Positions 1 through 45,841 are shown, counted from the first letter of the stretch. The stretch: DNA of 64,000 nucleotides from an uncultured Chryseobacterium sp. (GCA_964488095.1 CAZATP010000013.1:3576-67575), one strand, 5' to 3'. The notes: a model not told the origin generated them from the letters alone. Made by a program: numbers and translations.

Positions 1-264
1 GTCCATCTGCCCGAAATCGGAACCGGGGCCGATGGTCGGAGTGCTTTTCCCACGTCCACGCAGGTCGGGCACGAAAACGTCATAACCCTGATCGGCCAGA
101 AAGGGTGCGAATCCTTTGCCGCTCTCCGAGTAGAAGATCCTTCCGTTCTCAATGGATCCGTGGATCAACAGCACTGCCGGACCGCTTTTCTCCTTGAACC
201 AACGCTTCACGTGCAGTCGGTCCGATGGGTTGAGTTGCAGGAAAATGCTTTCGCTCTGTGCCAT
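1..264 (-). CDS. alpha/beta-fold hydrolase, N-terminal 88 aa only (gene continues beyond window start)
   Basis: Reverse-strand translation from the ATG at 262-264 gives MAQSESIFLQLNPSDRLHVKRWFKEKSGPAVLLIHGSIENGRIFYSESGKGFAPFLADQGYDVFVPDLRGRGKST... The HG oxyanion-hole context is typical of alpha/beta hydrolases. The frame stays open to position 1. Confidence 0.55.
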   Translation of the reverse strand, partial: MAQSESIFLQLNPSDRLHVKRWFKEKSGPAVLLIHGSIENGRIFYSESGKGFAPFLADQGYDVFVPDLRGRGKSTPTIGPGSDFGQMD

Positions 265-285
265 GGCGCGAAATTAGCCCTCGGT

Positions 286-843
286 TCAGTCTTCCACTTC
301 GATGGAATGGCCGTGAACGCGTCTCAGCAGGTCGAGCTGGCGGCTGAATGACCGGTAGAAGTCCTCCTTGTTCAGCCGCAGTCGCTGGAACCTGTCCGGG
401 CTCTCCGAAGCTATGATCTCGAAGCCGAGGTTCTTGTTGTAGTAGAGGGCTATCGTATTGTCATTCATCACCTTGGCCTCAACGGATTGAAGTGGTGTCT
501 GGTTGAAGAAATACTCGAGTATCAGCACGGAGGCACAGACTGGCAGAGGCGTTCCCTGATAGTCCTTTGTCCGGATGAACAGGCCCGACTGGCCGTTTCT
601 TTCCGTCCAATCAATGGCGGAGAAATGGATGAGGCCATGAAATTCACCCTCTGTGCGGATGAGGAAGTAAAAGTCGCATTTCGCATCCAGCGATCTGAAC
701 CACCGCTCCTGAGCCTCTTGGGAGATGTGCTCCCTATAATCCATAAAACGGTTGATGCTCTCGTCATTGCGCCACTGGCGCAGCATCTCGATATGATGGG
801 CCTCCAGTCTCACCAACTCTATGCCGTATCCCCTGATGGTCAT
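286..843 (-). CDS. GNAT family N-acetyltransferase
   Basis: 185-aa ORF with acetyltransferase-like core (…NDNTIALYYNKNLGFEI…). Its start overlaps the stop of the upstream GT2 gene (ATGA), implying co-transcription. Confidence 0.6.
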   Translation of the reverse strand: MTIRGYGIELVRLEAHHIEMLRQWRNDESINRFMDYREHISQEAQERWFRSLDAKCDFYFLIRTEGEFHGLIHFSAIDWTERNGQSGLFIRTKDYQGTPLPVCASVLILEYFFNQTPLQSVEAKVMNDNTIALYYNKNLGFEIIASESPDRFQRLRLNKEDFYRSFSRQLDLLRRVHGHSIEVED

Positions 844-1763
844 TCCCTGATCTCGCCTATCAGATATTGTGGCCGGTTCCAGTCTTTCACATACATGCGG
901 CTCACATATTCACCGATGATGCCAAGGCAGAAGAGAATGAGACTGGTACTGAAGAAGATGGCCACAATGATGGAGGTGTAGCCCAACGCCACATCGGCAT
1001 AGAGTTTCTCATAAATGAAATAGAGACCTATGCACATGGTGATGAACGAGAACAGCAGTCCGGCATAGGTCATCATGCGGAGTGGTAGCACCGTGTAGTT
1101 CACCACATAGTTGAGCGTCATGATCACCAGCCTGAAACTGCTGTAGCCCGACCTTCCATCGCTCCGTTCGCCATGTTTCACATTGACCTGTGCCACCGAG
1201 CTGGCATGCCAGCTCAGCACTTCGTCCAGCAGCATGTGGCGGTGATAGTTCTGCATCAGGCCTTTGCATACAGAACCTTTGACGAGACGGAACGATGAGC
1301 CGTTGCCTGATGTGCTTCCGATGATGCCGAACCCCCAGTTGAATAGGCGGCTGCCCATGTTGCGCACAGCCGAGTGATGCTTCTTCGGGAAGATGCCATA
1401 GACCATGTCGGCCCCGGTCTCCGACTGGCGGGAGATGAGAGCGGGTATCTCCTCTGGCAGATGCTGCAGGTCATCATCCATGGTGATGATCCAGTCGCCC
1501 TGCGCATGATGAATGCCGCACAGCGTGGCCGATTGTTGTCCGCTGTTCCGTGCCAGACGTATGCCTTTCACCTTTCCTTTAAAGCGGTCGAGCAGCGGCA
1601 GAATGACCGGCCATGTGGCATTCGGTCCCGCGTCATCCACCAGAATCACCTGAGCTGTCCGGCCGTCACGTTCCAACACATTGAAAATGCGCCCGACCAG
1701 TTCAGTGAGCGCATCCTTGCCCCCGAAAACAGGTATCACCACCGAATAGTCGTAGATTCTCAC
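840..1763 (-). CDS. family-2 glycosyltransferase with two C-terminal TM helices (polyprenyl-phosphate sugar transferase, ArnC/GtrB/DPM1-like)
   Basis: N-terminus YSVVIPVFGGKDAL…VILVDDAGPNAT…DDDLQH is the GT-A/GT2 signature. The C-terminus carries hydrophobic helices typical of bactoprenol-P glycosyltransferases. Confidence 0.7.
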   Translation of the reverse strand: MRIYDYSVVIPVFGGKDALTELVGRIFNVLERDGRTAQVILVDDAGPNATWPVILPLLDRFKGKVKGIRLARNSGQQSATLCGIHHAQGDWIITMDDDLQHLPEEIPALISRQSETGADMVYGIFPKKHHSAVRNMGSRLFNWGFGIIGSTSGNGSSFRLVKGSVCKGLMQNYHRHMLLDEVLSWHASSVAQVNVKHGERSDGRSGYSSFRLVIMTLNYVVNYTVLPLRMMTYAGLLFSFITMCIGLYFIYEKLYADVALGYTSIIVAIFFSTSLILFCLGIIGEYVSRMYVKDWNRPQYLIGEIRE

Positions 1764-1806
1764 AGGGGGTGAAAATACAGAAGTTGCAGTGGCCGTAAGA
1801 ATGCCC

Positions 1807-2874
1807 TCAGTCCTCGTATTCGGCCCAGATCACGGACTTCATGGCGGGCAGGTCGGCTATCATGGTGGCCCATGAAAGTCCGACACCGAAACCTGACAGC
1901 AACATACGTTTGGGCGCTTGGCACAGCTCATCCCTTAGGCAATGGGCCAAGGTGACGGGAATGGAGGCGGTGCCCGAGTTACCGAGGTCCTTCAGGCTGG
2001 TTGCCGTCTGCGATTCGGTGAGTCCGGACCGCTTGCGCACCATTTCGTTGATGACGCGGTTGGCCTGATGGAACACGGCATGGTCAACAGAGTCGAGACT
2101 GAACCCGATGGAAGCCGCGAGTCTGGACACCTGCTGCGGCCAGCTCTGGGCCGCCTGCTGATAGACGTCAATGCCGTTGAGGATCAGATCGATCGGTCTG
2201 CGTACGATTCCTGCTCCATGGTCGGTGGCCTGTAGGCTCTGTTCGTTGAACGGGTTTCGATACCCACCCTCTGGGATCCAGATGGATTCTTTGGCCGCGC
2301 CATTGGTGCTGAGTGCAAAGTGCATCGGGCTGCGCTGAGCCAGGTCCTTCACTATGGCGGTGGCAGACCCCGCATCTGAAAAGAGGGGAACGGTGCTTCG
2401 GTCGTTGGGTGAGATGCAAGAAGTGGAAACATCGCCTGCCAGCAGCAGGGCCTTCGAACCATCGGGCAGTCCTTGCAGCAGAGATGCCAGCGTCCACAGG
2501 CCATAGATGTAGCCCGAACAGCCCAGGTTCACATCAAAGGCAGCACAGTCCGTGGAACATCCGAGTCTGTTCTGGATAATGGCCGCAGTGGAAGGGGTGA
2601 TGTGATCGGGGGTCTGGGTCACCAGCACAATGATGCGCAGGTCGGATGGATGCCACCCGAGTTGATCCATAAGCTGCTCTGCGGCATGCACGCAGAGGTC
2701 GGATGTGCAAGTGCCCTTTGCGGCCACACGCCTGCTCTCGATGCCCGTTGAACGGATGAACAGATCACGTTCTTTGAGCGGAATGAGTTCACAGTCAAGA
2801 TTGTGGGCCGTCCGTTTCGGAACGGATGATGCTATGCCATCGATCCGGATGTGTTGCAGCTCCGCATGATTCAT
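1807..2874 (-). CDS. 3-oxoacyl-ACP synthase III (FabH/KAS III family)
   Basis: 355 aa. Active-site cysteine context NLGCSGYIYGL, an HxxN motif…FHQAN, and GNSGTASIP are KAS III hallmarks. Its start overlaps the stop of the upstream ACP-like ORF. Confidence 0.75.
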   Translation of the reverse strand: MNHAELQHIRIDGIASSVPKRTAHNLDCELIPLKERDLFIRSTGIESRRVAAKGTCTSDLCVHAAEQLMDQLGWHPSDLRIIVLVTQTPDHITPSTAAIIQNRLGCSTDCAAFDVNLGCSGYIYGLWTLASLLQGLPDGSKALLLAGDVSTSCISPNDRSTVPLFSDAGSATAIVKDLAQRSPMHFALSTNGAAKESIWIPEGGYRNPFNEQSLQATDHGAGIVRRPIDLILNGIDVYQQAAQSWPQQVSRLAASIGFSLDSVDHAVFHQANRVINEMVRKRSGLTESQTATSLKDLGNSGTASIPVTLAHCLRDELCQAPKRMLLSGFGVGLSWATMIADLPAMKSVIWAEYED

Positions 2875-3107
2875 GCAGGAAGATGCTGCGAAACGTGGTG
2901 ATGGAGGTCGCCCAATGTTCGGATCCGCGCGAACTCGGATGCAGAGATTTGAACGCCATAGAGGTCATCCACACGGGCAATAATGAGCAGCGCCAGCATG
3001 GAACTCCAGTTCGGGAGATCCCGCAGAACAGTGTCGGCTGCGAAGGGACGTTCGTCCGCTTCACGCAGTTCCGGTTCGATGGCGAGGATGAATTCGGTAA
3101 CGTTCAT
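2871..3107 (-). CDS. acyl-carrier-protein-like small protein (phosphopantetheine-binding fold)
   Basis: 78-aa ORF starting at the internal ATG (MNVTEFILAIEPELREADER…DLPNWSSM…) inside the longer six-frame ORF 2871-3443. It is acidic and helical, with a Ser in a DL..S context, and sits immediately upstream of KAS III. Size and position fit an ACP. Confidence 0.45.
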   Translation of the reverse strand: MNVTEFILAIEPELREADERPFAADTVLRDLPNWSSMLALLIIARVDDLYGVQISASEFARIRTLGDLHHHVSQHLPA

Positions 3108-3212
3108 TGAAGAGGGGGAGGGCGGGCTCGGCCCGTTGGTGCAAACATAATGGAAATCGAGGGTCCATGGTGTGTGCTTCCATGGCGTGGAGCACGGTTC
3201 TACCTTTGACCT

Positions 3213-4121
3213 ATGTCCGTGCCACTCACTTTTGCCCACATCATCAATCCCTTTTGGGTGACAGAGAGCAGTGATGCCTGGCGCGTTCAGCAGATTACGC
3301 TGCGTTCCCTTGCCGATGCCGTTGGTTTTACGCGCAAGGCGGAAGTACGTCTGCTGACGGCCCAGTTCGAGGAGGACAGGGCCATCGTCCCGGAAGGGTT
3401 CACTGCCACTGAGAACCTGAAAAGGTCCGTGGCCGACCTGCAATCGTTCTCAAGGCCGAGGAAATTCCCTCTCATTGCGGATGTGCTCCAACGGGCTGAG
3501 CAGGAGTGTGATGCGGAGTTCGTCATCTATACGAACATGGACATCATTGTGCAGCCCTATTTCTACGATGCCGTTGCCACATTGCTGAAGGATGGAGCGG
3601 ATGCACTCATCATCAACCGCAGAAGGATCCGGGACAGCGGCCAAGTGGCCACCGACCTTCCTTTGATTCTGGCGGATGTGGGATGGTCGCATCCCGGATT
3701 TGACTGTTTTGTGTTGCATCGTTCGCTCATTCCCAAACTCCGATTGGACGGCCTTTGCATCGGTGTCCCGTTCGTGGAGGCCGGACTGATGTACAACCTG
3801 ATGGCCCATTCCGAGGACTGCCGAATTCTGGAACACCTTCATCTCACCACGCATCTCGGATTGGAAGTGATGCCAGAGCGCGACAGGGAATACCATCGTT
3901 ACAATCAGCAGTGCTTCAACGCTATCATGCCCGGGTTGAAGCCGCTGCTCGTGGGGAAGCATCTGCCCTATGGCCAGCTTGGTCTCTTGGAGCGGACGTT
4001 GAAGCGCGGGCTCAATCCAGCGGTGTTCACAGGGCTGCATCTGGAACTGGAGGGTAGAACCTTTCTGCAACGTTGGCGCACACGGTGGAATGAGTTCCGA
4101 TTCAGGCTGCTGCACCGCTGA
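3213..4121 (+). CDS. hypothetical protein (possible nucleotide-sugar transferase-like fold)
   Basis: 302-aa ORF divergent from the ACP/KAS genes. No motif I can name with confidence. G+C matches its neighbours. Confidence 0.45.
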   Translation: MSVPLTFAHIINPFWVTESSDAWRVQQITLRSLADAVGFTRKAEVRLLTAQFEEDRAIVPEGFTATENLKRSVADLQSFSRPRKFPLIADVLQRAEQECDAEFVIYTNMDIIVQPYFYDAVATLLKDGADALIINRRRIRDSGQVATDLPLILADVGWSHPGFDCFVLHRSLIPKLRLDGLCIGVPFVEAGLMYNLMAHSEDCRILEHLHLTTHLGLEVMPERDREYHRYNQQCFNAIMPGLKPLLVGKHLPYGQLGLLERTLKRGLNPAVFTGLHLELEGRTFLQRWRTRWNEFRFRLLHR

Positions 4122-4167
4122 GGCGCAGTGCCCCGTCTATCTTTGCCCGGTGGACCATCAGCATTTC

Positions 4168-5190
4168 ATGCAGCGGAGCATCGACCTCGCCCAGTTGGGG
4201 CTGGGCAGCGTGGCTCCCAATCCCATGGTCGGTTGCGTGATCGTGCTCGAGGGGAAAATCATTGGAGAGGGCTATCACCGTGTTTTCGGAGGCCCGCATG
4301 CGGAGGTGGAAGCGGTCGCTTCTGTAGAGGACAAGTCCCTACTGCGCTCGTCCGTGATGTATGTGAGCCTCGAGCCCTGTGCCCATTTCGGCAAGACTCC
4401 TCCTTGTGCCAACCTCATTGTGGAAATGGGCATTCCGGAGGTGCACATCGCCACGCTCGACCCATTCGCCAAAGTGTCGGGCAGGGGTGTGGCGCTGCTC
4501 AGGGAAGCGGGCGTCAACGTTCACGTTGGACTTCTGGAACATGCAGCCCGCGCGTTGAACAGGCGTTTCCTCACGTTCCATGAACGGAAAAGACCCTACG
4601 TCATCCTGAAATGGGCTGAGACTGCAGATGGCTTCGTGGACAGCCTGCGAACGGCCACTGAGCTGCCCGCATCCATCACCGGAAAGGCGGCCAACGTGCT
4701 TTCACACACATGGCGGGCGCAGGAGGCGGCTGTGATGGTGGGCACCGGCACTGCTTTGCTCGATGACCCCTCGCTCACCGTGAGGAATGCCGCAGGTCGC
4801 AACCCGCTGCGCATCGTGCTGGACCGGGAAGGCAGACTTTCCCCGAACGCCAAACTGCTCGATCAGCAGGCTGAAACCCTCATTCTGAATGAGAAGCAAG
4901 ACCTTACTGTTGGCCTGAACCGTTGGGTCAGGCTCCGTTCCCTTGATGATCTGAACGAGGTGACGACCACGCTGTGGAGGTGCGATGTCCAGTCCGTTCT
5001 GGTGGAAGGCGGCCCTTCGTTGCATGGGCGGTTCGTGGAGGCAGGTCTGTGGGATGAGGCCCGCAGATATGTGAGCACGGACCGTTTGAAGGCGGGCATC
5101 TCAGCAGTGCGGTTTCCGTTCAATCCAGATGAGATAAGGCAGGTGGGAGACGACCGGCTCTATATCTATTCCAATCGCTGGACCGCATGA
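4168..5190 (+). CDS. ribD: bifunctional riboflavin biosynthesis protein RibD (pyrimidine deaminase / reductase)
   Basis: Internal start MQRSIDLAQLGLGSVAPNPMVGCVIV…HAEVEA…SLEPCAHFGKTPPC is the CMP/dCMP-type zinc deaminase motif set (HAE…PCxxC). The C-terminal half is RibD reductase-like (VLVEGGPSL). Confidence 0.8.
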   Translation: MQRSIDLAQLGLGSVAPNPMVGCVIVLEGKIIGEGYHRVFGGPHAEVEAVASVEDKSLLRSSVMYVSLEPCAHFGKTPPCANLIVEMGIPEVHIATLDPFAKVSGRGVALLREAGVNVHVGLLEHAARALNRRFLTFHERKRPYVILKWAETADGFVDSLRTATELPASITGKAANVLSHTWRAQEAAVMVGTGTALLDDPSLTVRNAAGRNPLRIVLDREGRLSPNAKLLDQQAETLILNEKQDLTVGLNRWVRLRSLDDLNEVTTTLWRCDVQSVLVEGGPSLHGRFVEAGLWDEARRYVSTDRLKAGISAVRFPFNPDEIRQVGDDRLYIYSNRWTA

Positions 5191-6099: not shown

Positions 6100-7305
6100 T
6101 CAGTAGGCGGAGGTGCGCTGAATGGAAAGTTTGCCGAACGTGACCTGCCCCTTGGCATCCACGAACTGAAGCATGTACATGCCACTGCTGAGGCCTACGC
6201 CATCCACACTTACCGTGCTTGATGCGATGCCTGACCATTCACTGACCATACGGCCACTGGCATCGAACATGCGCAACCGATGGCTTTCGCTGCCCCACGA
6301 TGGCAAGGCTATGGTGGCAGCATCGGTAGTGGGATTCGGATAGATGACCAACCCGTTCTCGGTCGTTGAATTATTCGGCAGATGCTTGGCATGATAGACC
6401 ACCCCGTTGATCCACGGGGCATTTTTGTCGAAGGGGACTTTTGCCAGTGTCTGGCCGGTGGTCAGGTCAAGCACCACGTGATAATTGCTGCCATCGTGTC
6501 CCATTCCCTTGAAGAGATAGCGGCCAGGCTCTGAAGGTGTTGTCCCACCTTGAATGCCATGGAATTCGGGCAGATGCACGATAAAGTCGGTGGTAGCGGA
6601 CATCGGGTCGACATGGACAAGTTGCGCTGCCGATGCTACCGTGTCGAAGAACATCATGCTATAAATGTCGCTGTCAGCGTCATATTCCGGTGCGCTCATG
6701 CGTGAGCTGATGGGGGCGGTGCTCACTGTAGCGCCAGTCTCCACATCGATCACATAGAAAAAGTGATCCATATTCCGGTTGCTGGCGCGAAGCACATACT
6801 GACCGTTGCGCACCAGCGGGGTGGCAGAATTCACCCACATCACACCGGGAATACTGTCGATAAGGGTAATCTCGGCCGTGAAGGGGTCGAACGATACGAA
6901 GTACTCGGTGGAGTCAGCAGTGTCCCACCATACCCCGAAATAGCGGTCGCCATCAGCATCATAGGCCATGCAGTTGATCTGATGGAGCTTGGGCGTCCGG
7001 CTCAGTAGCTCACCGGTCTGCGCATCCAGAACGAAGTAGTGGTCTACGCGCGTTGAGTCGCTCCCCGTGAAGATGTAGTAGCTCTTTTCCGTGTTCAGGA
7101 AAGATAGCCCACCGATGGTTCGCACATGAGGTATATGGCTGATGGGGGCCACGGAACCTGTGTAGGGGTCGAAGCGCACCAGGAATTCCTGCTCGGTCTG
7201 AGGTGCCCATTGCAGCCCGATATACGCGCCCTGCTGCGCCAAGGCCAAATGCGAGCAAGCGAACAGCATAACAGACACACTGGCATTCAGAAGTGCGTAT
7301 CTCAT
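6100..7305 (-). CDS. secreted hypothetical protein with T9SS C-terminal sorting domain
   Basis: Signal peptide MRYALLNASVSVMLFACSHLALAQQ at the internal start. C-terminus …GMYMLQFVDAKGQVTFGKLSIQ matches the Por/T9SS CTD pattern. Confidence 0.6.
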   Translation of the reverse strand: MRYALLNASVSVMLFACSHLALAQQGAYIGLQWAPQTEQEFLVRFDPYTGSVAPISHIPHVRTIGGLSFLNTEKSYYIFTGSDSTRVDHYFVLDAQTGELLSRTPKLHQINCMAYDADGDRYFGVWWDTADSTEYFVSFDPFTAEITLIDSIPGVMWVNSATPLVRNGQYVLRASNRNMDHFFYVIDVETGATVSTAPISSRMSAPEYDADSDIYSMMFFDTVASAAQLVHVDPMSATTDFIVHLPEFHGIQGGTTPSEPGRYLFKGMGHDGSNYHVVLDLTTGQTLAKVPFDKNAPWINGVVYHAKHLPNNSTTENGLVIYPNPTTDAATIALPSWGSESHRLRMFDASGRMVSEWSGIASSTVSVDGVGLSSGMYMLQFVDAKGQVTFGKLSIQRTSAY

Positions 7306-7421
7306 AGGGATTGTCTTTGATCCATGGTAAAAGTAGGTCATTTCAATTGTGAATGGACAATGCCTTACATGCCAGAATGCGCCATGTGACTGAACACCCT
7401 ATACTGCGAGTGGTCGACCGC

Positions 7422-9432: not shown

Positions 9433-10809
9433 CTACTTCCCGATGCAGAACCGCGAGAAGATGTTGCCCAGCAGGTCGTCCGTGGTGATCTGCCCGGTGA
9501 TCTCGCCCAAGTGATAGAGGGCCTTGCGGATGTCGATGGCCACCAGATCGCTGGGGACACCGTTCGCGAATCCGTGCAGCACCTGCTGCAGCGATTGTGC
9601 GGCCGCACTCAGCGCCTCCACATGGCGTTGGTTGGTAACGATGGTCTGGTCCTGATCAAGGGCGGTTAGGTCCACATGTGCACGCAGGTGGCTCACCAAC
9701 GCGTCAATACCTGTGCGTTCCTTGGCAGATATGGGTAGCGCACCGAAGCTTTCGAAATCTTTCCGTCTGTTTTCGGGGGCGCGGTCGATCTTGTTGGCCA
9801 CTGTGATGAGCCGTCCGTCCAGGTCGGGTATGCGTTGTCGCAAAGCGTCCAGTTCTGTGGCCACCTGTTCGGGGGTGTAGGTCGATACATCGAATAGGAA
9901 CAGCACGATATCAGCCTCCTTGGATTTCTGGAGCGTGCGTTCGATGCCAAGATGCTCGATAACATCGGTGGTCTCCCTGATGCCGGCCGTGTCCACGAAT
10001 CGGAAGCGGATGCCGTCTATCACCATCTCGTCCTCAACGGTGTCGCGGGTGGTGCCGGCAATCTCCGAAACGATGGCACGCTCCTCGTTCAGCAGCGCAT
10101 TCAGCAGGGTCGATTTGCCCGCATTCGGCTCACCGATAATGGTCACCTGCACGCCTTCCTTGATTACATTGCCCAGTTCGAACGAGCCGATGAGTCTCGC
10201 GATCACCTGTAGGATGTCGTTCACCAGAGCGGTCATGGCCCTTCGGTCGGCAAACTCCACGTCCTCCTCCGCAAAGTCCAGTTCCAGCTCGATGAGCGAG
10301 GCGAAATCCATCAACTTCTGGCGCAGGTCCAGCAATTCCCGGCTGAATCCGCCTCGCATCTGATGCATCGCCACCTTGTGGGCCGCGGCCGTTGTGGAGG
10401 AGATCAGGTCACCGATGGCCTCGGCCTGAGAGAGGTCCATTTTCCTGTTCAGGAAGGCACGCATGGCATATTCACCGGGCCGCGCCATGCGGCATCCGGC
10501 CGACCCGAGCAGTCGCAGCACCTTCTGCTGAATGAACACCGAGCCATGGCAACTGATCTCCACGCTGTCCTCGCCCGTAAAGGACCGGGGGCCTTTGAAA
10601 ACGCTCACCAGCACCTCGTCCACGGCCTCACCACCGTCCATGATCTTTCCGAAAAGGATGGTGTGCCCTTTGGCATCGGCCAGTCGTTTGCCTGCTGGGT
10701 GGCGGAAAACGCTGTCCACCAGCGCAAAGGTGTCTTTGCCCGATACCCTTATCACTGCGATGGCACCTACGCCTGCCGCAGTGGCAAGCGCCATGATGGT
10801 ATCATCCAT
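9433..10809 (-). CDS. mnmE: tRNA modification GTPase MnmE
   Basis: N-terminal MDDTIMALATAAGVGAIAVIRVSG, G-domain GEPNAGKSTLLNALL…DTAGIRET, and C-terminal …FCIGK are MnmE hallmarks. I chose the start by analogy to MnmE N-termini; the upstream ATG at 10857 is an alternative. Confidence 0.85.
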   Translation of the reverse strand: MDDTIMALATAAGVGAIAVIRVSGKDTFALVDSVFRHPAGKRLADAKGHTILFGKIMDGGEAVDEVLVSVFKGPRSFTGEDSVEISCHGSVFIQQKVLRLLGSAGCRMARPGEYAMRAFLNRKMDLSQAEAIGDLISSTTAAAHKVAMHQMRGGFSRELLDLRQKLMDFASLIELELDFAEEDVEFADRRAMTALVNDILQVIARLIGSFELGNVIKEGVQVTIIGEPNAGKSTLLNALLNEERAIVSEIAGTTRDTVEDEMVIDGIRFRFVDTAGIRETTDVIEHLGIERTLQKSKEADIVLFLFDVSTYTPEQVATELDALRQRIPDLDGRLITVANKIDRAPENRRKDFESFGALPISAKERTGIDALVSHLRAHVDLTALDQDQTIVTNQRHVEALSAAAQSLQQVLHGFANGVPSDLVAIDIRKALYHLGEITGQITTDDLLGNIFSRFCIGK

Positions 10810-10958
10810 ATGCACAAGTGAGGAGTTCATTCCGAGTGATGGCGGTGATTCGTGCAAAGATGGGCCGAGCTGACCTCTTGGAAGGTCATGAAAACGAAAA
10901 GCCCTGTTCCGAACATCGGAACAGGGCCATTTCTATGGGATCAGAGGTAAGCCTTGGC

Positions 10959-11237
10959 TTACTTCACTGCGTCAGAAAGCTCGCTACCGGCCTTGAAACG
11001 AACCACGTTCTTGGCAGCGATCTTGATTTCTTTGCCAGTCTGTGGGTTGCGTCCAGTACGGGCTTCTCTCGTAGAAACAGAGAAAGAACCGAAGCCTACA
11101 AGAGACACACGGCCATCTTTCTTCTTCAGTTCAGCAGTAGTAACACTTACGAATGCGTCAAGTGCTTTCTTAGCATCAGCTTTAGAAAGACCAGCCTCGT
11201 TTGCAATTGCTTCAATGAGTTCTGCTTTGTTTGCCAT
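10959..11237 (-). CDS. hup: HU family nucleoid DNA-binding protein
   Basis: 92 aa, MANKAELIEAIA…GFGSF…RNPQTGKEI is the HU/IHF signature. Confidence 0.85.
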   Translation of the reverse strand: MANKAELIEAIANEAGLSKADAKKALDAFVSVTTAELKKKDGRVSLVGFGSFSVSTREARTGRNPQTGKEIKIAAKNVVRFKAGSELSDAVK

Positions 11238-11430
11238 TTTGTTTTGGTTTGTTTAATGGGTTTAACAATGATTTGCCCGACAAATATAGCCGCCTCTCCA
11301 TACGGGCTGCGGGATTGAGTATGGAACAGGGCTTTTTGTTGATAAAAGCGGGGCTTTGTTCATAACCGTGGTCTGCATGCCCCGTCAATACTGACATTCA
11401 TGCATTCTCGGCTACGAAAAACACGTAAAA

Positions 11431-12393
11431 TCACCCTGTGATGGCTGTGTCTGAGATGTCGAACCCGTTCAGGAATTCCCCGACCGTCATTCTCCTTTTT
11501 CCAGAAAGTTGCACTTCCAGCAGCGAAAGTTGCCCGTCTTTGCATTGCACATGGAGGAAAGTCCGTCCATCAGAACTCAACTGGCCCGGTGCCCCGGATG
11601 CGGAATCGGCCACCACCTGCGAGCGGAAGATTTTCAGGACGAAGACTTCGTCCCCCGTTCTAATCTCGGTGAATGCGGAAGGATAGGGCGAAAGGCCGCG
11701 GATGTGGTTGAATATATCGGCCGCGCTTCTACCCCAGTCAATGCGGCAGAAATCCTTGAAGATCTTTGGAGCACCGAAAAGCTCTTCCTGGAGAATTCCG
11801 GTCTGCGGGATGGCTGCCACATTTCCGGTTGCGATTCTTCGGACCGTTTCTACCACCAGCCGTGCCCCGATGGCCATCAAACGGTCGTGCAGTTCGCCTG
11901 CGGTTTCCTCGGGCCCGATAGGCGTTTTCTCCTGAAGGATGATGTTGCCTGTGTCAATCTCCTGCTCAAGGAAGAAGGTGGTGACCCCCGTCTCCTTGGC
12001 ACCCGAGATGATCGCGTGGTTGATAGGGGCGGCACCACGGAACTGTGGGAGCAGCGAAGCATGCAGATTGAACGTGCCTTTCGCAGGCATGGCCCAAACG
12101 GCCTGAGGCAGCATTCGGAAGGCGACCACCACTTGTAGCGTGGCTTTGTAAGACCATAACTCTTCAAGGAACGCTTCGGACCGGAGGTTCGTGGGCTGTA
12201 GCACCGGAAGACCGTGTTGCACGGCAAAGGCCTTCACAGCCGAGGGTTGCAGCTTCATTCCTCGGCCAGCGGGCCTGTCGGGCGCGGTGATCACGGCCAC
12301 CACGTTGCAGCTCGCAGCCACAAGCGCGGAAAGGGAGGCCACCGCGAACTCTGGTGTGCCCATGAATATGATACGCTCATCCGCCAATGCCAT
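11431..12393 (-). CDS. fmt: methionyl-tRNA formyltransferase
   Basis: IIFMGTPEFAV…; …NLHASLLPQFRGAAPI… formyltransferase motif. Confidence 0.85.
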   Translation of the reverse strand: MALADERIIFMGTPEFAVASLSALVAASCNVVAVITAPDRPAGRGMKLQPSAVKAFAVQHGLPVLQPTNLRSEAFLEELWSYKATLQVVVAFRMLPQAVWAMPAKGTFNLHASLLPQFRGAAPINHAIISGAKETGVTTFFLEQEIDTGNIILQEKTPIGPEETAGELHDRLMAIGARLVVETVRRIATGNVAAIPQTGILQEELFGAPKIFKDFCRIDWGRSAADIFNHIRGLSPYPSAFTEIRTGDEVFVLKIFRSQVVADSASGAPGQLSSDGRTFLHVQCKDGQLSLLEVQLSGKRRMTVGEFLNGFDISDTAITG

Positions 12394-12441
12394 GGTGTGC
12401 TATGCTATGAGTAAAAGCGAGGTCTATTGGCCTTTGGACCA

Positions 12442-13779
12442 TCATTCGGAAATCACCGGAAGATTCTTCCAACGGCCGCTCCAAAGGTAGAGGGTGGCCA
12501 AAATCCCGATGCTCGTGAAATAGACCATCTCGGCCGACCAGACCAGATACAGCGGCCAATGCCAGAGGTTCACAGTGGCCCAGGTGAACGAGAAGTAAAA
12601 CAGCAGGGTGGTCACCTCTATAAGTAGGGCCATGCGTGTGGCCCCCGTTCCTGAGACCGATGCCAGCAGATTCATGGCCACGGAGAAGAAAAGGATGCAG
12701 AGTGATAACATATAGACCACGGGGATGGCACCCTCCACCAATCCGCTGTCGTCTGTGAAGATGTTGAGCAGCAGAGTAGGGGCAAGGAGATTGATTAGCA
12801 GCACCGCAGTGGAGCACCCGAGGCTCAGCAGAACGATTCTGACGATGAGTTTGCGAAGCAGCTCCGGGCGGTGCTGTCCCAGCAGATTGCTCACCAGGGT
12901 CTGCGTGGCCTGCGAGATGCCTATGAGCGGTATCATCAGCACGGAATACACGCTGCGGGCCACATTGGAAATGGCCAGTTGCCGCTCTCCCATTCCCTCG
13001 ATCAATGTGAAGAACGCCAGCCACGAGCATAGCGCCACCACGTGCTGCAGCATCACCGGAAGGCCCATGTTGAGAATGGAGAGCGTCACGGTCCTGCCGG
13101 GCAGGGGGAATCTGAAACACCTGTAGTCGAGCCCCAGTTCCCTTGCCTTCACCCATACCATGATGAAGATGAGGCTGAGCAGTTCGGCCAGCACAGAGGC
13201 CAATGCCGCGCCCTCCAGTTCCATTCTGGGGAATCCCCATTTGCCGAATACCAACAGATAATTGAACAGCACATTGGCCAAGGCCATGGCCACACTGGCA
13301 TAGGAAATGGCCTTGGTGTTGCTCACACCTGTGAGGAACGCCCTGTATGCGAGAAAGAGGAATGCTGGCAGGAATCCCAGAACGCGGATGTCCAGATAGT
13401 CGAGCAGCCCTTGACGGATGGCATCACTGGTGATGACGTGTGCGAGCACGGTGGGTGTTACCAGGGCATGGATGCCCCAGAGCAGCAGCACCATGGCCAA
13501 CATCAGGTAAAGCAGATGGTCGAACACCTCTCCGATATCCTGCTGTCGGCCTTCGCCATCCAACCGCGCCATGATGATCTGCGCACCGATGCCCAGACCC
13601 ACTGCGGCCATCAGGAAAATGAGGTAATAGATGCCGCCCAGCCCTACGGCCCCGAGCGCCACATCGCTGACCCGCCCCAGAAAAGCGGCATCGGTCACGT
13701 TGATCACAGTGAATGCCACACCGCTCATGATAAGCGGATAGCTCACCTGCCAGATGTTACGGTAGGAAATGGATTCCAT
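12442..13779 (-). CDS. MATE family efflux transporter
   Basis: 445 aa, 12 TM segments. N-terminal …YRNIWQVSYPLIMSG… is typical of the MATE/NorM family. Confidence 0.75.
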   Translation of the reverse strand: MESISYRNIWQVSYPLIMSGVAFTVINVTDAAFLGRVSDVALGAVGLGGIYYLIFLMAAVGLGIGAQIIMARLDGEGRQQDIGEVFDHLLYLMLAMVLLLWGIHALVTPTVLAHVITSDAIRQGLLDYLDIRVLGFLPAFLFLAYRAFLTGVSNTKAISYASVAMALANVLFNYLLVFGKWGFPRMELEGAALASVLAELLSLIFIMVWVKARELGLDYRCFRFPLPGRTVTLSILNMGLPVMLQHVVALCSWLAFFTLIEGMGERQLAISNVARSVYSVLMIPLIGISQATQTLVSNLLGQHRPELLRKLIVRIVLLSLGCSTAVLLINLLAPTLLLNIFTDDSGLVEGAIPVVYMLSLCILFFSVAMNLLASVSGTGATRMALLIEVTTLLFYFSFTWATVNLWHWPLYLVWSAEMVYFTSIGILATLYLWSGRWKNLPVISE

Positions 13780-13887
13780 TTCTGATGAAATGGCTGAGTG
13801 TTAGACTTGGTCCCTTCCCCAATTCAGTGGAAGGAACGGTAATGCCCTATGCGTGGCGGCCATCCGCTCAATGGCCTCCGCGCGAGG

Positions 13888-15852
13888 TCATTTCTTCGGT
13901 TTGCCCTTGAACTTGGTGGAGAAGGGCTTGGCTGCAGCCGCAGGCTTCGGACTTGCTCCGAAACGCTTGGCGAACTTGTCGCGGTTGGTTCCGGAAGCGC
14001 TTGCCGGGCGGTCATCGCGGTCGCGGCTGAAGGAAGGCTTGTAGCCACCTTCCCCGCGCGGCTTCTCGTCCCTTGGGCGGTCTTCCCTGCTGCCATAGGT
14101 CTTGCGGGGTGCGAAACCTTCGTCCTTTCTCGGATTAGGGGCATACGGCTTCTTGAAGCCGCTGCTGCCCTCGTCCCTGCGACCGAAGGATGGTTTCTGG
14201 GAGAAATCCTTGTCCGGTGCATCCTCCAGCACAATCTCCCGACCTCCACGGTCGGCATTCCGAAGTGCGGCCCTGAGGGCATCGGCATACTCGGCATCAA
14301 TCTCGAATACGCTCACGGTGTTCAACACTTCTATCTTCCCGATCTCCACATCCCTGCGGTTCAGCTGGTCGTTGAGGAAACCGATGAGTGAAGAAGGATT
14401 GACATTGTCGCGTCTGCCCACGTTGATCTTGAACTTGGACATCGGTGCACCTGTTCCACGCGCGCTGCTCAGTTTGTTGAACTGTGGCTCGCTGTCCAAA
14501 CGCTCACGCTTCACTTTGCGGTCGCGCTCACCGGCATTGAGGTCGGGAGCATTCTTATAATAGTTGAGGAACGTGCTGAACTCGTGCGTCACCAGTTTTT
14601 TGATGATGGTCTCCCTGTCAAGTCCTTCCAGCTGTTCGAGCACGGCAGGCAGGTATTTCGCCACCTGTTTCTCATCCACTTCGAGGTTGCTGATCTTGTC
14701 CATGATGTGGAAAAGCTGCTTCTCGCAGATTTCCTTGCCGCTGGGCACGGGCTGTTGCTCGAATCTGCGACCGAGCTTTTTCTCAATGGCGCGCAGCTTG
14801 TTCACCTCGCGGCTGTGCACAATGGCGATGGAGATACCGGTCTTGCCAGCACGGCCTGTTCTTCCGCTGCGGTGTATGTAGGCCTCGGCCTCGTCCGGAA
14901 GACTGTAGTTGATCACGTGGGTCAGGTCGTTCACGTCCAGACCGCGTGCCGCCACGTCCGTGGCCACAAGCAGTTGCAGATGGCGCGTGCGGAAACGGCC
15001 CATGATGGTATCGCGCTGCGCCTGCGATAGGTCGCCATGCAGTGCGTCAGCATTGTAGCCGTCCGTCATCAGCTTGTTGGCGATCTCCTGCGTCTCTCTC
15101 CGTGTGCGGCAGAAGACGATGCCGTATACATCCGGGTTGAGGTCAGCAATCCGTTTCAGGGCATCATACTTGTCTCGGGCACTTACCAGGTAGAACACGT
15201 GTTCGATGGTGGCCGCACCGGTGCTGTCCGACTTCACCTTCACCTCCACGGGGTTGTGCATGTACTTATTGGAGATGCTGCGGATCTCGGGCGGCATAGT
15301 GGCCGAGAAGAGCAGGGTGCGCTTCTCCTTCGGGGTCTCTGCCAGGATCAGGTCCAGATCGTCTTTGAAGCCCATGTTGAGCATCTCATCGGCCTCGTCC
15401 AGCACAAGGAACTGTACATCACCGAGCTTCAGAGCTCCACGGTTGATGAGGTCTACAGTGCGACCGGGAGTGCCGATCACCACCTGTGCACCGCGCTTCA
15501 GCCCGCGGATCTGGGTGTCCATGCTGGCACCGCCATACACGGCCACTGTGCGCACCGGCATGTGGGCCGAGAAGGCCTCCATGTCCTTGGCGATCTGCAG
15601 GCAGAGTTCGCGGGTGGGGCAGAGCACGATGCACTGCACGCTCATCGAATCGGTGTCCAGCTGATGCAGCACCGGAAGGCTGAACGCAGCGGTCTTCCCT
15701 GTGCCGGTCTGCGCGAGGGCAATGAGGTCGCCCTCACCGTTCAGCACCTGTGGGATGCTCTGTTCCTGAATGGGGGTGGGGGTGACGAAACTTAATCCGT
15801 CAAGGGCCTGCACCAGCTCGGGGCGCAGTCCCAGTTCTTTAAAAGAAGGCAT
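13888..15852 (-). CDS. deaD: DEAD-box ATP-dependent RNA helicase (DeaD/CsdA-like) with long basic RG/K-rich C-terminal tail
   Basis: Q-motif, AQTGTGKT, DEAD (LVLDEAD), SAT and HRSGRTGRAG are all present. The C-terminal ~150 aa are Arg/Gly/Lys/Asp-rich and low-complexity. Confidence 0.8.
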   Translation of the reverse strand: MPSFKELGLRPELVQALDGLSFVTPTPIQEQSIPQVLNGEGDLIALAQTGTGKTAAFSLPVLHQLDTDSMSVQCIVLCPTRELCLQIAKDMEAFSAHMPVRTVAVYGGASMDTQIRGLKRGAQVVIGTPGRTVDLINRGALKLGDVQFLVLDEADEMLNMGFKDDLDLILAETPKEKRTLLFSATMPPEIRSISNKYMHNPVEVKVKSDSTGAATIEHVFYLVSARDKYDALKRIADLNPDVYGIVFCRTRRETQEIANKLMTDGYNADALHGDLSQAQRDTIMGRFRTRHLQLLVATDVAARGLDVNDLTHVINYSLPDEAEAYIHRSGRTGRAGKTGISIAIVHSREVNKLRAIEKKLGRRFEQQPVPSGKEICEKQLFHIMDKISNLEVDEKQVAKYLPAVLEQLEGLDRETIIKKLVTHEFSTFLNYYKNAPDLNAGERDRKVKRERLDSEPQFNKLSSARGTGAPMSKFKINVGRRDNVNPSSLIGFLNDQLNRRDVEIGKIEVLNTVSVFEIDAEYADALRAALRNADRGGREIVLEDAPDKDFSQKPSFGRRDEGSSGFKKPYAPNPRKDEGFAPRKTYGSREDRPRDEKPRGEGGYKPSFSRDRDDRPASASGTNRDKFAKRFGASPKPAAAAKPFSTKFKGKPKK

Positions 15853-16094
15853 GGGTATGATTTGAATGTGATGGCCACAGCAGATTGCTCTGAGCCTGAT
15901 GGGAGATGATTACGCTGAAAGGTTGACAACCGACCCTTCCGGACCATCAATCCCATCAATGAGGGTGCAAAAGTAGTTAAAATCCGATAGGTTCAGCATG
16001 GTGCTGATTGCAAGCATGTTAAGGAATGTAAAAACCATGGAAACTTTTTTCATACTGAAAGTTTCCGTTGTTTCCTGTGAAGTACTTTTGCCGC

Positions 16095-18067: not shown

Positions 18068-18130
18068 TCATAACCCGCTCACATTCAGATAATCACACGT
18101 TTGAACCAACACCTTCACAATTCAACAAGG

Positions 18131-19267: not shown

Positions 19268-19391
19268 GGGTTTCAGGTTCAGGGTTTCAAGTTGGGAGCT
19301 ATTCAGTTGCGATGCGCCCGATCCGGTAGGTTCAACTGATAGCGCATTGAACCTGAAGCATTAGGCCTTAAACGTTAAACACATTGTTTTC

Positions 19392-45755: not shown

Positions 45756-45841
45756 GGGGTATTGGTTTGTGGGCGGCAATCGGAAGCGTTTCGTCAAGGA
45801 CGGTGAAACTTCCAAGCAGTTGCGGGCTTCAGTGAATGGGG

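What the first reader, a model, noticed from the sequence alone, without database searches (positions are those of the whole stretch)
1..4121. Compact KAS III – ACP-like – membrane GT2 – GNAT – alpha/beta hydrolase cassette: candidate specialised lipid/glycolipid tailoring locus
A stand-alone FabH-type condensing enzyme with its own small carrier-protein-like ORF is typical of dedicated pathways that make non-standard acyl chains (alkylresorcinol/flexirubin-type, unusual starter units, acyl-amino-acid lipids), rather than housekeeping fatty-acid synthesis. Here the two are co-directional and overlapping with a polyprenyl-phosphate-type GT2, a GNAT acetyltransferase and an alpha/beta hydrolase, with a divergent unknown 302-aa protein. 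The cluster is followed by unrelated ribD.
Basis: partly seen in the sequence, partly recalled or inferred. Interest (0 to 1): 0.55.

Follow-up and report, generated by a model that had tools for sequence, protein, structure and literature searches.

The report
Acyl-sugar decoration cassette in Bacteroidota
This is a real, conserved but uncharacterised Bacteroidota operon in which a private acyl-carrier protein and condensing enzyme sit with an ArnC/GtrB-type lipid-carrier glycosyltransferase and an N-acyltransferase, most likely to put an acylated sugar on the carrier lipid for decorating a surface glycan, not to make an unusual membrane lipid or pigment.

Summary
They form one minus-strand operon, ACP-KAS III-GT2-GNAT-alpha/beta hydrolase, with a divergent 302-aa gene (U302).

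The KAS III/ACP pair is dedicated, not housekeeping. The catalytic Cys-His-Asn triad and the phosphopantetheine serine are invariant. Both proteins score below every FabH/AcpP naming cut-off, and DarB-type models barely match.

In 81 non-redundant KAS-seeded genome loci this KAS III family has two contexts:
- Polysaccharide loci with a DegT aminotransferase and a PglD-like acyltransferase. In Flavobacterium psychrophilum this layout is predicted to make an N-3,5-dihydroxyhexanoyl amino sugar.
- The cassette seen here: ACP-KAS-(ketoreductase)-ArnC-like GT2-GNAT, found in 47 loci across Bacteroidota. It often has a TMTC-like GT-C, a Wzx-like flippase and sulfotransferases nearby.

U302 is part of the module (14/47 against 0/34 loci). 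It is a GT-A-fold glycosyltransferase family with no Pfam model. The hydrolase is lineage-specific.

Best reading (about 0.5): an acyl-ACP-fed, Arn/Gtr-like pathway that makes a polyprenyl-phosphate-linked N-acyl sugar. The sugar, the acyl chain length and the target are unknown.

Verdict: new variant of a known kind, moderate interest.

The parts
2871..3107 (-). Dedicated acyl carrier protein (78 aa). Motif W34-S35-S36-M; Ser36 is the predicted phosphopantetheine site.
   Evidence: PP-binding scores 22.0 bits against a cut-off of 20.8. AcpP models score 16 bits against cut-offs of 66-146. Ser36 is invariant in 64/64 and Trp34 in 63/64 members, and Ser36 aligns with AcpP Ser36. JGI annotates identical copies as 'acyl carrier protein'.
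1807..2874 (-). KAS III (FabH-like) condensing enzyme, 355 aa. Triad Cys119/His269/Asn299.
   Evidence: Hits Pfam ACP_syn_III and ACP_syn_III_C. FabH subfamily models score 216 and 184 bits, below their cut-offs of 249 and 292; DarB scores 21 bits against 550. The triad is invariant in 29 relatives. Closest solved structures are the uncharacterised Burkholderia FabH-like proteins 4EFI and 3GWA. In a neighbour-joining tree it falls in the cassette-specific clade, far from E. coli FabH.
840..1763 (-). ArnC/GtrB-type GT2, 307 aa. Cytoplasmic GT-A domain with a DDD motif, plus two C-terminal transmembrane helices. Predicted polyprenyl-phosphate glycosyltransferase.
   Evidence: Glycos_transf_2 scores 88 bits. 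The ArnC equivalog NF007986 aligns over residues 3-304 but scores 134 bits against a cut-off of 529. It aligns end to end with solved ArnC (9hwj, E 8e-35) and GtrB (5ekp, E 9e-33).
286..843 (-). GNAT N-acyltransferase, 185 aa, of the PseH/SpeG/RimL type. Its start overlaps the GT2 stop by 4 nt.
   Evidence: Hits Acetyltransf_3 and Acetyltransf_4. Its best named model is PseH TIGR03585, at 70 bits against a cut-off of 93. PDB matches are SpeG and PseH at about E 1e-6. It is present in 35/47 GT2-containing loci and 1/34 others.
1..264 (-). N-terminal 88 aa of a 298-aa alpha/beta hydrolase, cut by the window edge. A lineage-specific accessory gene.
   Evidence: Abhydrolase_1 scores 38.5 bits. The full gene is in L001 and contains a GAHSWGG nucleophile elbow. 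It has no specific family. It is absent from the cassette in L007 and L008 and in all other orders.
3108..3212 (.). 105-nt divergent intergenic region between the ACP operon and the 302-aa gene. Presumed to hold the promoters.
   Evidence: Position only. The sigma-70 consensus scan finds nothing, which is uninformative because the scan tests only that one consensus; from my own knowledge, Bacteroidota promoters follow a different consensus.
3213..4121 (+). U302: soluble GT-A-fold glycosyltransferase-like protein of a family with no Pfam model. Conserved N108-x-D110, R136-R138, H160-P-G-F-D164. A recurrent partner of the cassette.
   Evidence: No Pfam, NCBIfam or PDB sequence hit. The AlphaFold2 model has pLDDT 88.8. 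Top Foldseek PDB hits are WrtF, TarS, TarP, SpsA and RmlT, at probability 1.0 and TM 0.45-0.5. A homologue lies near the cassette in 14/47 loci against 0/34. The family has 1321 representative clusters. The domain is fused to GT1/GT4, sulfotransferase, TylF and TPR domains.

Best explanation
The locus is a glycan-decoration module built like the Arn and Gtr systems, but fed by its own acyl-ACP supply.

Proposed steps:
1. The private ACP is phosphopantetheinylated. The KAS III condenses a short acyl primer with malonyl-ACP to give a 3-oxoacyl-ACP. Most relatives carry an adjacent FabG-like reductase that would make the 3-hydroxyacyl form. The window's clade lacks it.
2. The PseH-like GNAT moves that acyl group, or acetyl, onto the amino group of a nucleotide-activated or carrier-lipid-linked sugar.
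3. The ArnC/GtrB-type GT2 transfers the sugar to polyprenyl phosphate at the inner face of the membrane.
4. After flipping, a GT-C enzyme puts the acylated sugar on a surface glycan or protein. That enzyme is not in this window. A TMTC-like one is adjacent in many relatives.
5. The GT-A protein U302 adds or prepares a further sugar. The alpha/beta hydrolase is a lineage-specific accessory, possibly a thioesterase or deacylase.

Shown by the analyses here: gene identities, intact catalytic residues, conserved gene order, family contexts and the U302 fold.

Inferred, not shown: acyl-ACP as the GNAT's donor, the nature of the sugar and of the amine, a short chain length, and the final target.
For: - Gene identities and intact catalytic residues.
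- The cassette order recurs in 47 of 81 non-redundant KAS-seeded loci, from Chitinophagales, Sphingobacteriales, Flavobacteriales and Bacteroidales. GNAT is present in 35/47 of these against 1/34 of the rest (Fisher 2e-11; loci are not phylogenetically independent).
- The sister context of the same KAS, ACP and SDR families is DegT + ACP-KAS-SDR-(KAS) + PglD-like acyltransferase inside polysaccharide loci. In F. psychrophilum this layout is predicted to build the N-3,5-dihydroxyhexanoyl group of Qui2NAc4N (PMC6519341).
- Pocket-lining positions are similar in the two contexts. I recalled the position list from memory, so this carries low weight.
- In a GT2-seeded metagenome sample, GT2s 43-100% identical to cassette GT2s carry KAS/ACP/SDR/GNAT next to them on 10 of the 15 contigs. 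Three of the other five have almost no sequence upstream of the GT2, and two (L093, L098) have different genes there.
- The next-nearest GT2s (at most 41% identical) sit in GT2-GNAT-DegT modules, some with a GtrA flippase, which is the layout expected for an amino-sugar-on-carrier-lipid pathway.
- A TMTC-like GT-C with TPR repeats lies near 14/47 cassettes. It is directly upstream on the same strand in the window's own no-reductase clade (L012, L018). Wzx-like flippases lie near 10/47.
- Hybrid locus L076 combines ACP-KAS-SDR, PglD, DegT, the GT2 and a large DUF6056 protein of unknown function.
- U302 homologues also sit beside DegT-Wzm-Wzt-PglD-GT2 loci and are fused to glycan-modifying domains.
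Against: - No aminotransferase or dehydratase lies in or near the cassette (DegT in 5/47 loci), so the amine acceptor is unidentified.
- The window's clade has no ketoreductase, so the acyl product is unclear.
- About six loci have ACP-KAS-SDR-GT2 with no GNAT nearby. Two or three cassette-type GT2s lack an adjacent KAS. The coupling is therefore strong but not obligatory.
- No GT-C, GtrA or Wzx gene is in the 64-kb window.
- The usual GNAT Q/R-x-x-G-x-G/A motif is not conserved. This could mean a non-CoA donor, but it proves nothing.
- A FadD-like ligase lies near 9/47 loci, which leaves a long-chain primer possible.
- Nothing has been tested biochemically, and no paper on this cassette was found.
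Confidence: 0.5

Rival explanations
1. Specialised membrane lipid or glycolipid pathway, essentially the first reader's idea. The KAS III extends a long-chain acyl-CoA on the private ACP. The GNAT makes an N-acyl amine lipid (a lipoamino acid or N-acyl amino-sugar lipid). The GT2 and U302 glycosylate it.
For: - A FadD-like long-chain acyl-CoA ligase lies near 9/47 cassettes against 1/34 other loci.
- Homologues of the aspartyl/asparaginyl beta-hydroxylase family (Pfam Asp_Arg_Hydrox) and MBOAT acyltransferases lie near some cassettes. From my own knowledge, the lipid hydroxylases LpxO and OlsC belong to that hydroxylase family.
- The window KAS has Thr, and relatives Ile/Leu, where E. coli FabH has Phe87. 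This is a lead only, because the position was recalled from memory.
- The alpha/beta hydrolase could act as a lipid acyltransferase or esterase.
Against: - Every solved full-length sequence match of this GT2 is a polyprenyl-phosphate enzyme, ArnC or GtrB, and the partial match is a dolichol-phosphate mannose synthase.
- The same KAS, ACP and SDR families serve a short C6 N-acyl sugar substituent in the only context the literature interprets.
- A KAS III alone does not iterate, and no elongating KAS I/II, dehydratase or enoyl reductase is in any locus.
- U302 and the accessory genes (Wzx, sulfotransferases, TMTC-like GT-C) belong to glycan biology.
- DarB/StlD-type chemistry is excluded by model scores.
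Confidence: 0.22
2. The GT2-GNAT pair is an ordinary acetyl-CoA-dependent amino-sugar-to-carrier-lipid module. The ACP-KAS pair serves a different acceptor, for example O-acylation of the glycan by another enzyme, and is only co-regulated with it.
For: - GT2-GNAT(-DegT) modules without ACP/KAS are common among the nearest GT2 relatives.
- Some cassettes lack the GNAT, and some cassette-type GT2s lack the KAS.
- The GNAT's best named relatives, PseH and SpeG, use acetyl-CoA; that they do is my own knowledge, while searches show only the similarity.
Against: - Translational coupling: ACP/KAS and GT2/GNAT each overlap by 4 nt, all in one operon.
- The cassette GNAT (Acetyltransf_3 type) differs in subfamily from the GNAT of the generic modules (Acetyltransf_1 type). 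It occurs almost only with ACP-KAS in the sample (35/47 against 1/34).
- Contig L100 keeps ACP-GT2-GNAT even without a KAS.
Confidence: 0.2
3. Housekeeping fatty-acid initiation: this is the organism's own FabH and AcpP.
For: The catalytic triad and the phosphopantetheine serine are intact. No other fabH or acpP is in the 64-kb window.
Against: - The KAS scores below all FabH cut-offs, and the ACP scores 16 bits against 66-146 for AcpP models.
- The cassette is patchily distributed, and the genes sit with GT2/GNAT rather than with fatty-acid-synthesis genes such as fabD or fabG.
- Flavobacterium and Mucilaginibacter isolates carry the same KAS family inside polysaccharide loci.
Confidence: 0.02

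Closest known systems
Arn pathway of lipid A modification (ArnB aminotransferase, ArnA N-formyltransferase, ArnC GT2, ArnD, ArnE/F, ArnT)
   Same: The GT2 aligns with ArnC over its full length, including the membrane helices. In Arn, an N-acyltransferase acts on an amino sugar that is transferred to undecaprenyl phosphate; this description of the Arn pathway is from my own knowledge. The nearest non-cassette GT2 relatives are paired with a GNAT and a DegT aminotransferase, as ArnC is paired with ArnA and ArnB.
   Different: The GT2 scores far below the ArnC equivalog cut-off (134 against 529). There is no ArnA, ArnB, ArnD or ArnT. The acyltransferase is a GNAT rather than a formyltransferase. 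A private ACP and KAS III are present. The sugar and the target are unknown.
Gtr serotype-conversion systems (GtrA flippase, GtrB GT2, GtrC-type GT-C)
   Same: The GT2 aligns with solved GtrB (5ekp, E 9e-33). Many related cassettes have an adjacent GT-C-type membrane glycosyltransferase (TMTC-like) and a flippase.
   Different: No GtrA or GT-C gene is in this window. Gtr systems transfer plain glucose and have no acyl-ACP or GNAT component.
Flavobacterium psychrophilum O-polysaccharide genes wfpC/wfpE (KAS), wfpD (ACP), wfpF (ketoreductase), wfpG (PglD-like acyltransferase)
   Same: The same kinds of genes and the same logic: a private ACP and KAS III (with a ketoreductase) build a short hydroxyacyl group that is amide-linked to an amino sugar (PMC6519341). 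Flavobacterium loci with this layout hold KAS proteins 42-44% identical to the window's, and they form the sister clade.
   Different: The Wfp function is itself only predicted. There the acyltransferase is a left-handed beta-helix PglD homologue, with DegT, inside an O-unit locus. Here it is a GNAT coupled to a polyprenyl-phosphate GT2, with one KAS and no reductase. No direct sequence comparison with the Wfp proteins was made.
Housekeeping FabH/AcpP of type II fatty acid synthesis
   Same: The fold, the Cys-His-Asn triad and the phosphopantetheine serine.
   Different: Scores fall below the naming cut-offs. The ACP is very divergent (W-S-S-M instead of D-S-L-D). The context is glycan-related and the distribution is patchy.
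DarB/StlD ketosynthases of dialkylresorcinol and flexirubin clusters
   Same: Both are stand-alone FabH-like enzymes in Bacteroidota secondary pathways.
   Different: Model scores of 21-23 bits against cut-offs of 450-550. No DarA and no other flexirubin-type gene is in any locus.
Nod factor genes NodF (ACP), NodE (ketosynthase), NodA (N-acyltransferase), NodC (GT2), NodB; analogy from my own knowledge
   Same: A private ACP and ketosynthase feed an N-acyltransferase that acylates an amino sugar made with a GT2.
   Different: The families differ. NodE is a KAS I/II type and NodA is not a GNAT. NodC is a processive synthase, and its model scores only E 0.007 here. The resemblance is one of logic, not ancestry.

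Membership tests
KAS III (FabH) superfamily | ACP_syn_III N- and C-terminal domains with a Cys-His-Asn catalytic triad | tested here: met
   Pfam scores of 45 and 77 bits are above their cut-offs. Cys119, His269 and Asn299 are invariant in 29 relatives and align with E. coli C112/H244/N274.
Housekeeping FabH (NCBIfam TIGR00747 / NF006829) | Score at or above the curated family cut-off | tested here: not met
   184 against 292 bits and 216 against 249 bits.
Housekeeping FabH | It is the only FabH in the genome, or a canonical copy is absent elsewhere | not testable with these tools
   Only 64 kb plus 6.3 kb of the source genome are held. No second copy is in the window or in any held locus.
Acyl carrier protein | PP-binding fold with a conserved phosphopantetheine-attachment serine | tested here: met
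   PP-binding scores 22.0 bits against a cut-off of 20.8. Ser36 is invariant in 64/64 members and aligned to AcpP Ser36.
AcpP (housekeeping ACP equivalogs) | Score at or above the curated cut-off | tested here: not met
   16 bits against cut-offs of 66-146. No cassette ACP matches E. coli AcpP at E 1e-5.
Polyprenyl-phosphate glycosyltransferases (ArnC / GtrB / DPM1 type GT2) | N-terminal GT-A domain with a DXD motif plus juxtamembrane and C-terminal transmembrane helices, aligned over the full length with characterised members | tested here: met
   Residues 5-305 align with ArnC (9hwj, 9bhc, 8vxh) and GtrB (5ekp) at E 1e-33 to 1e-35. The D-D-D motif lies in 'ITMDDDLQ'. The two hydrophobic C-terminal segments are visible in the sequence.
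ArnC proper (NF007986 equivalog) | Score at or above the cut-off, with ArnA/ArnB/ArnT partner genes | tested here: not met
   134 against 529 bits. No Arn partner genes are in the window or in related loci.
Polyprenyl-phosphate glycosyltransferases | Demonstrated transfer of a sugar from a nucleotide sugar to polyprenyl phosphate | not testable with these tools
   Needs a membrane enzyme assay.
GNAT superfamily | Acetyltransf_3/4 domain above the cut-off | tested here: met
   47 and 41 bits against cut-offs of 25 and 24.
PseH (TIGR03585 equivalog) | Score at or above the cut-off, with PseB/PseC/PseF/PseG/PseI partner genes | tested here: not met
   70 against 93 bits. No Pse genes are nearby.
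DarB / StlD ketosynthases | Score at or above the curated cut-off | tested here: not met
   21 and 23 bits against cut-offs of 550 and 450.
GT-A fold glycosyltransferases (for the 302-aa protein U302) | Rossmann-like GT-A fold with an acidic metal- or nucleotide-binding motif after beta-4 | tested here: inconclusive
   The confident model (pLDDT 88.8) matches GT2-family structures at Foldseek probability 1.0, but with TM only 0.45-0.5 and 9-15% identity. The motif is an invariant N108-x-D110 rather than DXD. No sequence model matches.

The most novel reading that the evidence does not exclude
Bacteroidota have an undescribed pathway with two new elements. First, a GNAT takes a beta-keto- or beta-hydroxy-acyl group from a private ACP and puts it on a sugar, which an ArnC-like GT2 loads onto polyprenyl phosphate. 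TMTC-like GT-C enzymes then use this acylated donor to decorate surface glycans or secreted proteins. Second, a new glycosyltransferase family with no Pfam model (U302, about 1300 representative clusters, often fused to sulfotransferases) works alongside it.
Probability: 0.35. Interest if true: 0.6.

Novelty: new variant of a known kind. Interest (0 to 1): 0.45.

Why it matters
- If the reading is right, it defines a widespread and so far unstudied way for Bacteroidota to make acylated, and in relatives probably sulfated, surface decorations through a carrier-lipid monophosphate donor. It would join two known schemes: Arn/Gtr-type periplasmic glycosylation and private acyl-ACP synthesis of sugar N-acyl groups.
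- Such decorations affect phage, immune and antimicrobial-peptide recognition.
- It gives a context-based functional hypothesis for a GT-A-fold family that has no Pfam model.
- It flags that 'FabH' and 'ACP' annotations in these loci should not be read as fatty-acid synthesis or secondary-metabolite genes.
- The components are all of familiar kinds, so the surprise for a specialist is moderate.

Tried and rejected
Considered and rejected:
- Housekeeping FabH/AcpP: scores below cut-offs, glycan context and patchy distribution.
- DarB/flexirubin/alkylresorcinol: model scores.
- Alpha/beta hydrolase as a core component: it is present only in the window's near relatives.
- Small and mid-sized genes next to the cassette in some Flavobacteriales as GtrA-like flippases or GT-C enzymes: c27, c41 and c52 are ribosomal proteins S12 and S7 and EF-G. 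c60 looks like a small secreted protein, judged from its sequence alone.
- EamA transporter downstream of ribD as a candidate flippase: this neighbourhood is conserved only in the close lineage, with ribD in between.

Led nowhere:
- No riboswitch or other RNA in the region.
- The sigma-70 promoter scan found nothing.
- Four literature searches for the cassette found nothing relevant.
- Seeding a metagenome scan on the GNAT failed twice because the alignment was too divergent. A GT2 alignment was used instead.
The closest named relative of the GNAT is a 'Flavobacteriales bacterium' MAG at 67% identity.

Full report
**1. What is in the sequence**

The ORF table and the raw sequence show five co-directional genes on the minus strand of window 1-3107.
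- ACP-like ORF, 2871-3107, 78 aa.
- KAS III, 1807-2874, 355 aa. Its ATG overlaps the ACP stop by 4 nt.
- GT2, 840-1763, 307 aa, after a 43-nt gap.
- GNAT, 286-843, 185 aa, with a 4-nt overlap on the GT2 gene.
- Alpha/beta hydrolase starting at 264, after a 21-nt gap. It runs off the window edge.

A 302-aa ORF (here called U302, 3213-4121) diverges from the ACP gene across a 105-nt spacer. ribD follows it.

Pfam and NCBIfam confirm each family. An identical metagenome contig (L001) supplies the rest of the hydrolase (298 aa, with a GAHSWGG nucleophile elbow). It also shows that the next gene is a convergent ammonium transporter. The operon therefore has exactly five genes.

**2. The KAS III/ACP pair is functional but not housekeeping**

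- The KAS keeps Cys119, His269 and Asn299, invariant in 29 relatives.
- It scores below both general FabH models: 216 against 249 bits and 184 against 292 bits.
- It scores only 21-23 bits on the DarB/StlD models, whose cut-offs are 450-550.
- Its closest solved relatives are two uncharacterised Burkholderia FabH-like proteins, 4EFI and 3GWA.
- The ACP passes the Pfam PP-binding threshold (22.0 against 20.8 bits) but scores about 16 bits on AcpP models.
- In an alignment of 64 family members, Ser36 is invariant, Trp34 is nearly so, and Ser36 aligns with Ser36 of E. coli AcpP.
- No second fabH or acpP lies in the window or in any locus I hold.
- Whether the genome has canonical copies elsewhere could not be tested.

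**3. Family context, seeded on the KAS**

A scan of species-representative genomes with a KAS alignment returned 80 loci. The best is 49% identical to the window's enzyme, and nearly all are Bacteroidota, with a few Proteobacteria. I called ORFs, clustered them, and annotated cluster representatives. Two contexts appear.

*Type A (34 loci without the ArnC-like GT2).*
- Layout: ACP-KAS-SDR-(second KAS), with a DegT aminotransferase in 22/34 loci and a PglD-like hexapeptide acyltransferase in 18/34.
- These sit inside polysaccharide loci of Flavobacterium, Mucilaginibacter, Methylovorus and others.
- This is the layout that Cisar and colleagues interpret in F. psychrophilum as synthesis of the N-3,5-dihydroxyhexanoyl group on Qui2NAc4N, transferred from the locus-specific ACP (PMC6519341). 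That function is itself a prediction.

*Type B (47 loci).*
- Layout: (second KAS)-ACP-KAS-(SDR)-ArnC-like GT2-GNAT.
- GNAT is present in 35/47 of these loci and in 1/34 Type A loci.
- Enriched neighbours: TMTC-like GT-C with TPR repeats (14/47), Wzx-like flippase (10/47), sulfotransferases (14/47), B12-radical SAM enzymes (10/47), Asp/Asn-hydroxylase-family proteins (7/47) and a FadD-like ligase (9/47).
- The loci are not phylogenetically independent, so those values are only indicative.

A neighbour-joining tree places the window's KAS in a clade of Type B cassettes that lack the reductase (mainly Chitinophagales-like MAGs). This clade sits next to the reductase-containing Type B clade and then to the first KAS of Type A. 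The 'second KAS' forms a separate deep clade.

**4. The GT2**

The GT2 aligns end to end, membrane helices included, with solved ArnC structures (E about 1e-34) and with GtrB (5ekp). It is far below the ArnC equivalog cut-off. It is therefore a polyprenyl-phosphate glycosyltransferase by homology, but it is not ArnC.

To avoid the bias of seeding on the KAS, I seeded a metagenome scan on a GT2 alignment.
- Fifteen of the 80 GT2s returned are 43-100% identical to cassette GT2s.
- Ten of those fifteen contigs carry KAS, ACP, SDR or GNAT beside the GT2.
- Three of the other five have almost no sequence upstream of the GT2. Two (L093, L098) have different genes there.
- One further variant, L100, has ACP-GT2-GNAT with no KAS.
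- The remaining GT2s (at most 41% identical) lie mostly in modules of GT2, a GNAT (22 loci) and a DegT aminotransferase (34 loci). Some also have a GtrA flippase, a hexapeptide acyltransferase or an NAD-dependent epimerase/dehydratase-family enzyme.
- That is the layout expected for a pathway that makes an amino sugar, N-acylates it and loads it onto a carrier lipid.

The nearest evolutionary neighbours of the cassette GT2 thus handle N-acylated amino sugars.

**5. The 302-aa protein U302**

- It has no sequence-model hit, and all its homologues are annotated as hypothetical.
- An AlphaFold2 model built on 49 homologues is confident: pLDDT 88.8, pTM 0.86.
- Its best PDB matches are GT-A glycosyltransferases (WrtF, TarS, TarP, SpsA, RmlT, K4CP). 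Foldseek probability is 1.0, TM 0.45-0.5 and identity 9-15%.
- Invariant residues include N108-x-D110, at the position of the DXD motif, R136-R138 and H160-P-G-F-D164.
- A homologue lies next to the cassette in 14/47 Type B loci and 0/34 Type A loci. It is usually convergent just after the GNAT.
- Homologues also occur without the cassette, divergent from DegT-Wzm-Wzt-PglD-GT2 loci.
- A profile search finds 1321 representative clusters.
- In long proteins the domain is fused to GT1/GT4 glycosyltransferase, sulfotransferase, TylF methyltransferase and TPR domains.

I read U302 as a glycan-building GT-A family that Pfam does not yet cover, and as a recurrent though not universal partner of the module.

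**6. The hydrolase**

The hydrolase matches only generic alpha/beta-hydrolase models. It accompanies the cassette only in the window's close lineage (L001, L002, L005, L006). It is absent from the 68%-identical L007 and from every other order. It is an accessory gene, and I did not establish its role.

**7. Mechanism**

Putting this together, the best-supported reading is an Arn/Gtr-like decoration pathway with a private acyl supply.
1. ACP and KAS III make a short 3-oxoacyl-ACP. Relatives with the reductase would make the 3-hydroxyacyl form.
2. The GNAT N-acylates a sugar.
3. The GT2 loads the sugar onto polyprenyl phosphate.
4. A GT-C enzyme, not in this window, transfers it outside the cytoplasm.
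5. U302 supplies another glycosyl transfer.

What the analyses show: gene families, intact catalytic residues, conserved order, contexts and the U302 fold.

What is inferred: that the GNAT's donor is the acyl-ACP, that the chain is short, which sugar and which amine are involved, and what the target is.

Weak points:
- No aminotransferase lies in the cassette.
- The window's clade has no reductase.
- A minority of loci lack the GNAT or the KAS.
- No GT-C or flippase is in the 64-kb window.
- FadD-like ligases near some loci leave a long-chain primer possible.

Positions that line the E. coli FabH acyl pocket are similar in Type A and Type B first KAS enzymes. This fits a similar primer size. 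I took the position list from memory, so I give it little weight.

**8. Rivals**

- A true lipid or glycolipid pathway remains possible, at about 0.2. What speaks against it: every solved full-length sequence match of the GT2 (ArnC, GtrB) is a polyprenyl-phosphate enzyme, and the partial match is a dolichol-phosphate mannose synthase; no elongation enzymes are present; and all accessory genes are glycan-related.
- A reading in which GT2-GNAT is an ordinary acetyl-CoA module, with ACP-KAS serving another acceptor, is also about 0.2.
- Housekeeping fatty-acid initiation and chance adjacency are effectively excluded.

**9. Novelty and verdict**

I found no paper describing this cassette. All its parts are of known kinds, and its logic combines two known schemes. 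I therefore file it as a new variant of a known kind. The added points are a GT-A family without a Pfam model and a cassette that is conserved widely across Bacteroidota yet seen almost only in uncultured genomes in my samples. Interest is moderate, at 0.45.

Noticed in passing
window 42330-45845 (-) and 6100-7341 (-): A 1171-aa protein with Propeptide_C25, Peptidase_C25 and a Por_Secre_tail domain (PorU-like type IX secretion component), and a 413-aa Por_Secre_tail cargo protein. These place the window in Bacteroidota.
   Followed up: partly
window 30501-34934 (-) and 27050-28603 (+): A 1477-aa ORF and a 517-aa ORF have no Pfam match at E 1e-5. The large one ends beside the window's only tRNA gene, at 30404-30477.
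   Followed up: no
window 28581-30065 (+), 59973-62183 (+), 16727-22832 (+): An aromatic amino acid ammonia-lyase (627 bits). A 736-aa radical SAM protein. An RND efflux set with an OEP outer-membrane protein (16727-18067) and an AcrB-type pump (19392-22832); the 388-aa ORF between them (18101-19267) was not annotated.
   Followed up: no
window 4090-5190 (+): The longest ribD ORF overlaps the 302-aa gene by 32 nt, but the ribD model match begins at residue 27, where the sequence has a Met. One JGI gene call for a relative uses a shorter 340-aa form. The true start is probably near 4168.
   Followed up: partly
related loci L011, L017, L019, L023, L039, L059, L062, L066, L083, L084 (Bacteroidales MAGs): In Bacteroidales the cassette is embedded in larger loci that variously carry sulfotransferases, a Wzx-like flippase, one or two B12-binding radical SAM enzymes and a FadD-like ligase. 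This suggests a sulfated and further modified product.
   Followed up: partly
L029, L035, L037, L038, L051, L074 and others: Up to three tandem Asp/Asn beta-hydroxylase-family genes (about 250 aa) lie next to the cassette. Their substrate, whether an acyl chain, a sugar or a protein, is unknown.
   Followed up: no
L076 (Bacteroidales MAG), about 10000-19100: A hybrid locus: ACP-KAS-SDR-x-PglD-KAS-ACP-KAS-SDR-ArnC-like GT2-DUF6056 (546 aa)-DegT. It joins both contexts of the KAS family in one place.
   Followed up: partly
metagenome loci L105-L170: A very common module of ArnC-like GT2, GNAT (Acetyltransf_1) and DegT aminotransferase. It often comes with methyltransferases, a GtrA flippase, or 680-700-aa proteins with no Pfam match that I suspect, without having tested it, are GT-C enzymes.
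   Followed up: partly
L021, L030, L044, L056 (Flavobacteriales-type MAGs): The cassette sits directly beside the rpsL-rpsG-fusA ribosomal-protein operon, an unusual neighbourhood for an accessory glycan module.
   Followed up: no
GNAT family alignment (window 286-843 and 36 relatives): The canonical GNAT pyrophosphate-binding motif Q/R-x-x-G-x-G/A is not conserved. The window has Q-G-T-P-L-P, and only one Pro is conserved above 90%. This may reflect a donor other than an acyl-CoA.
   Followed up: no
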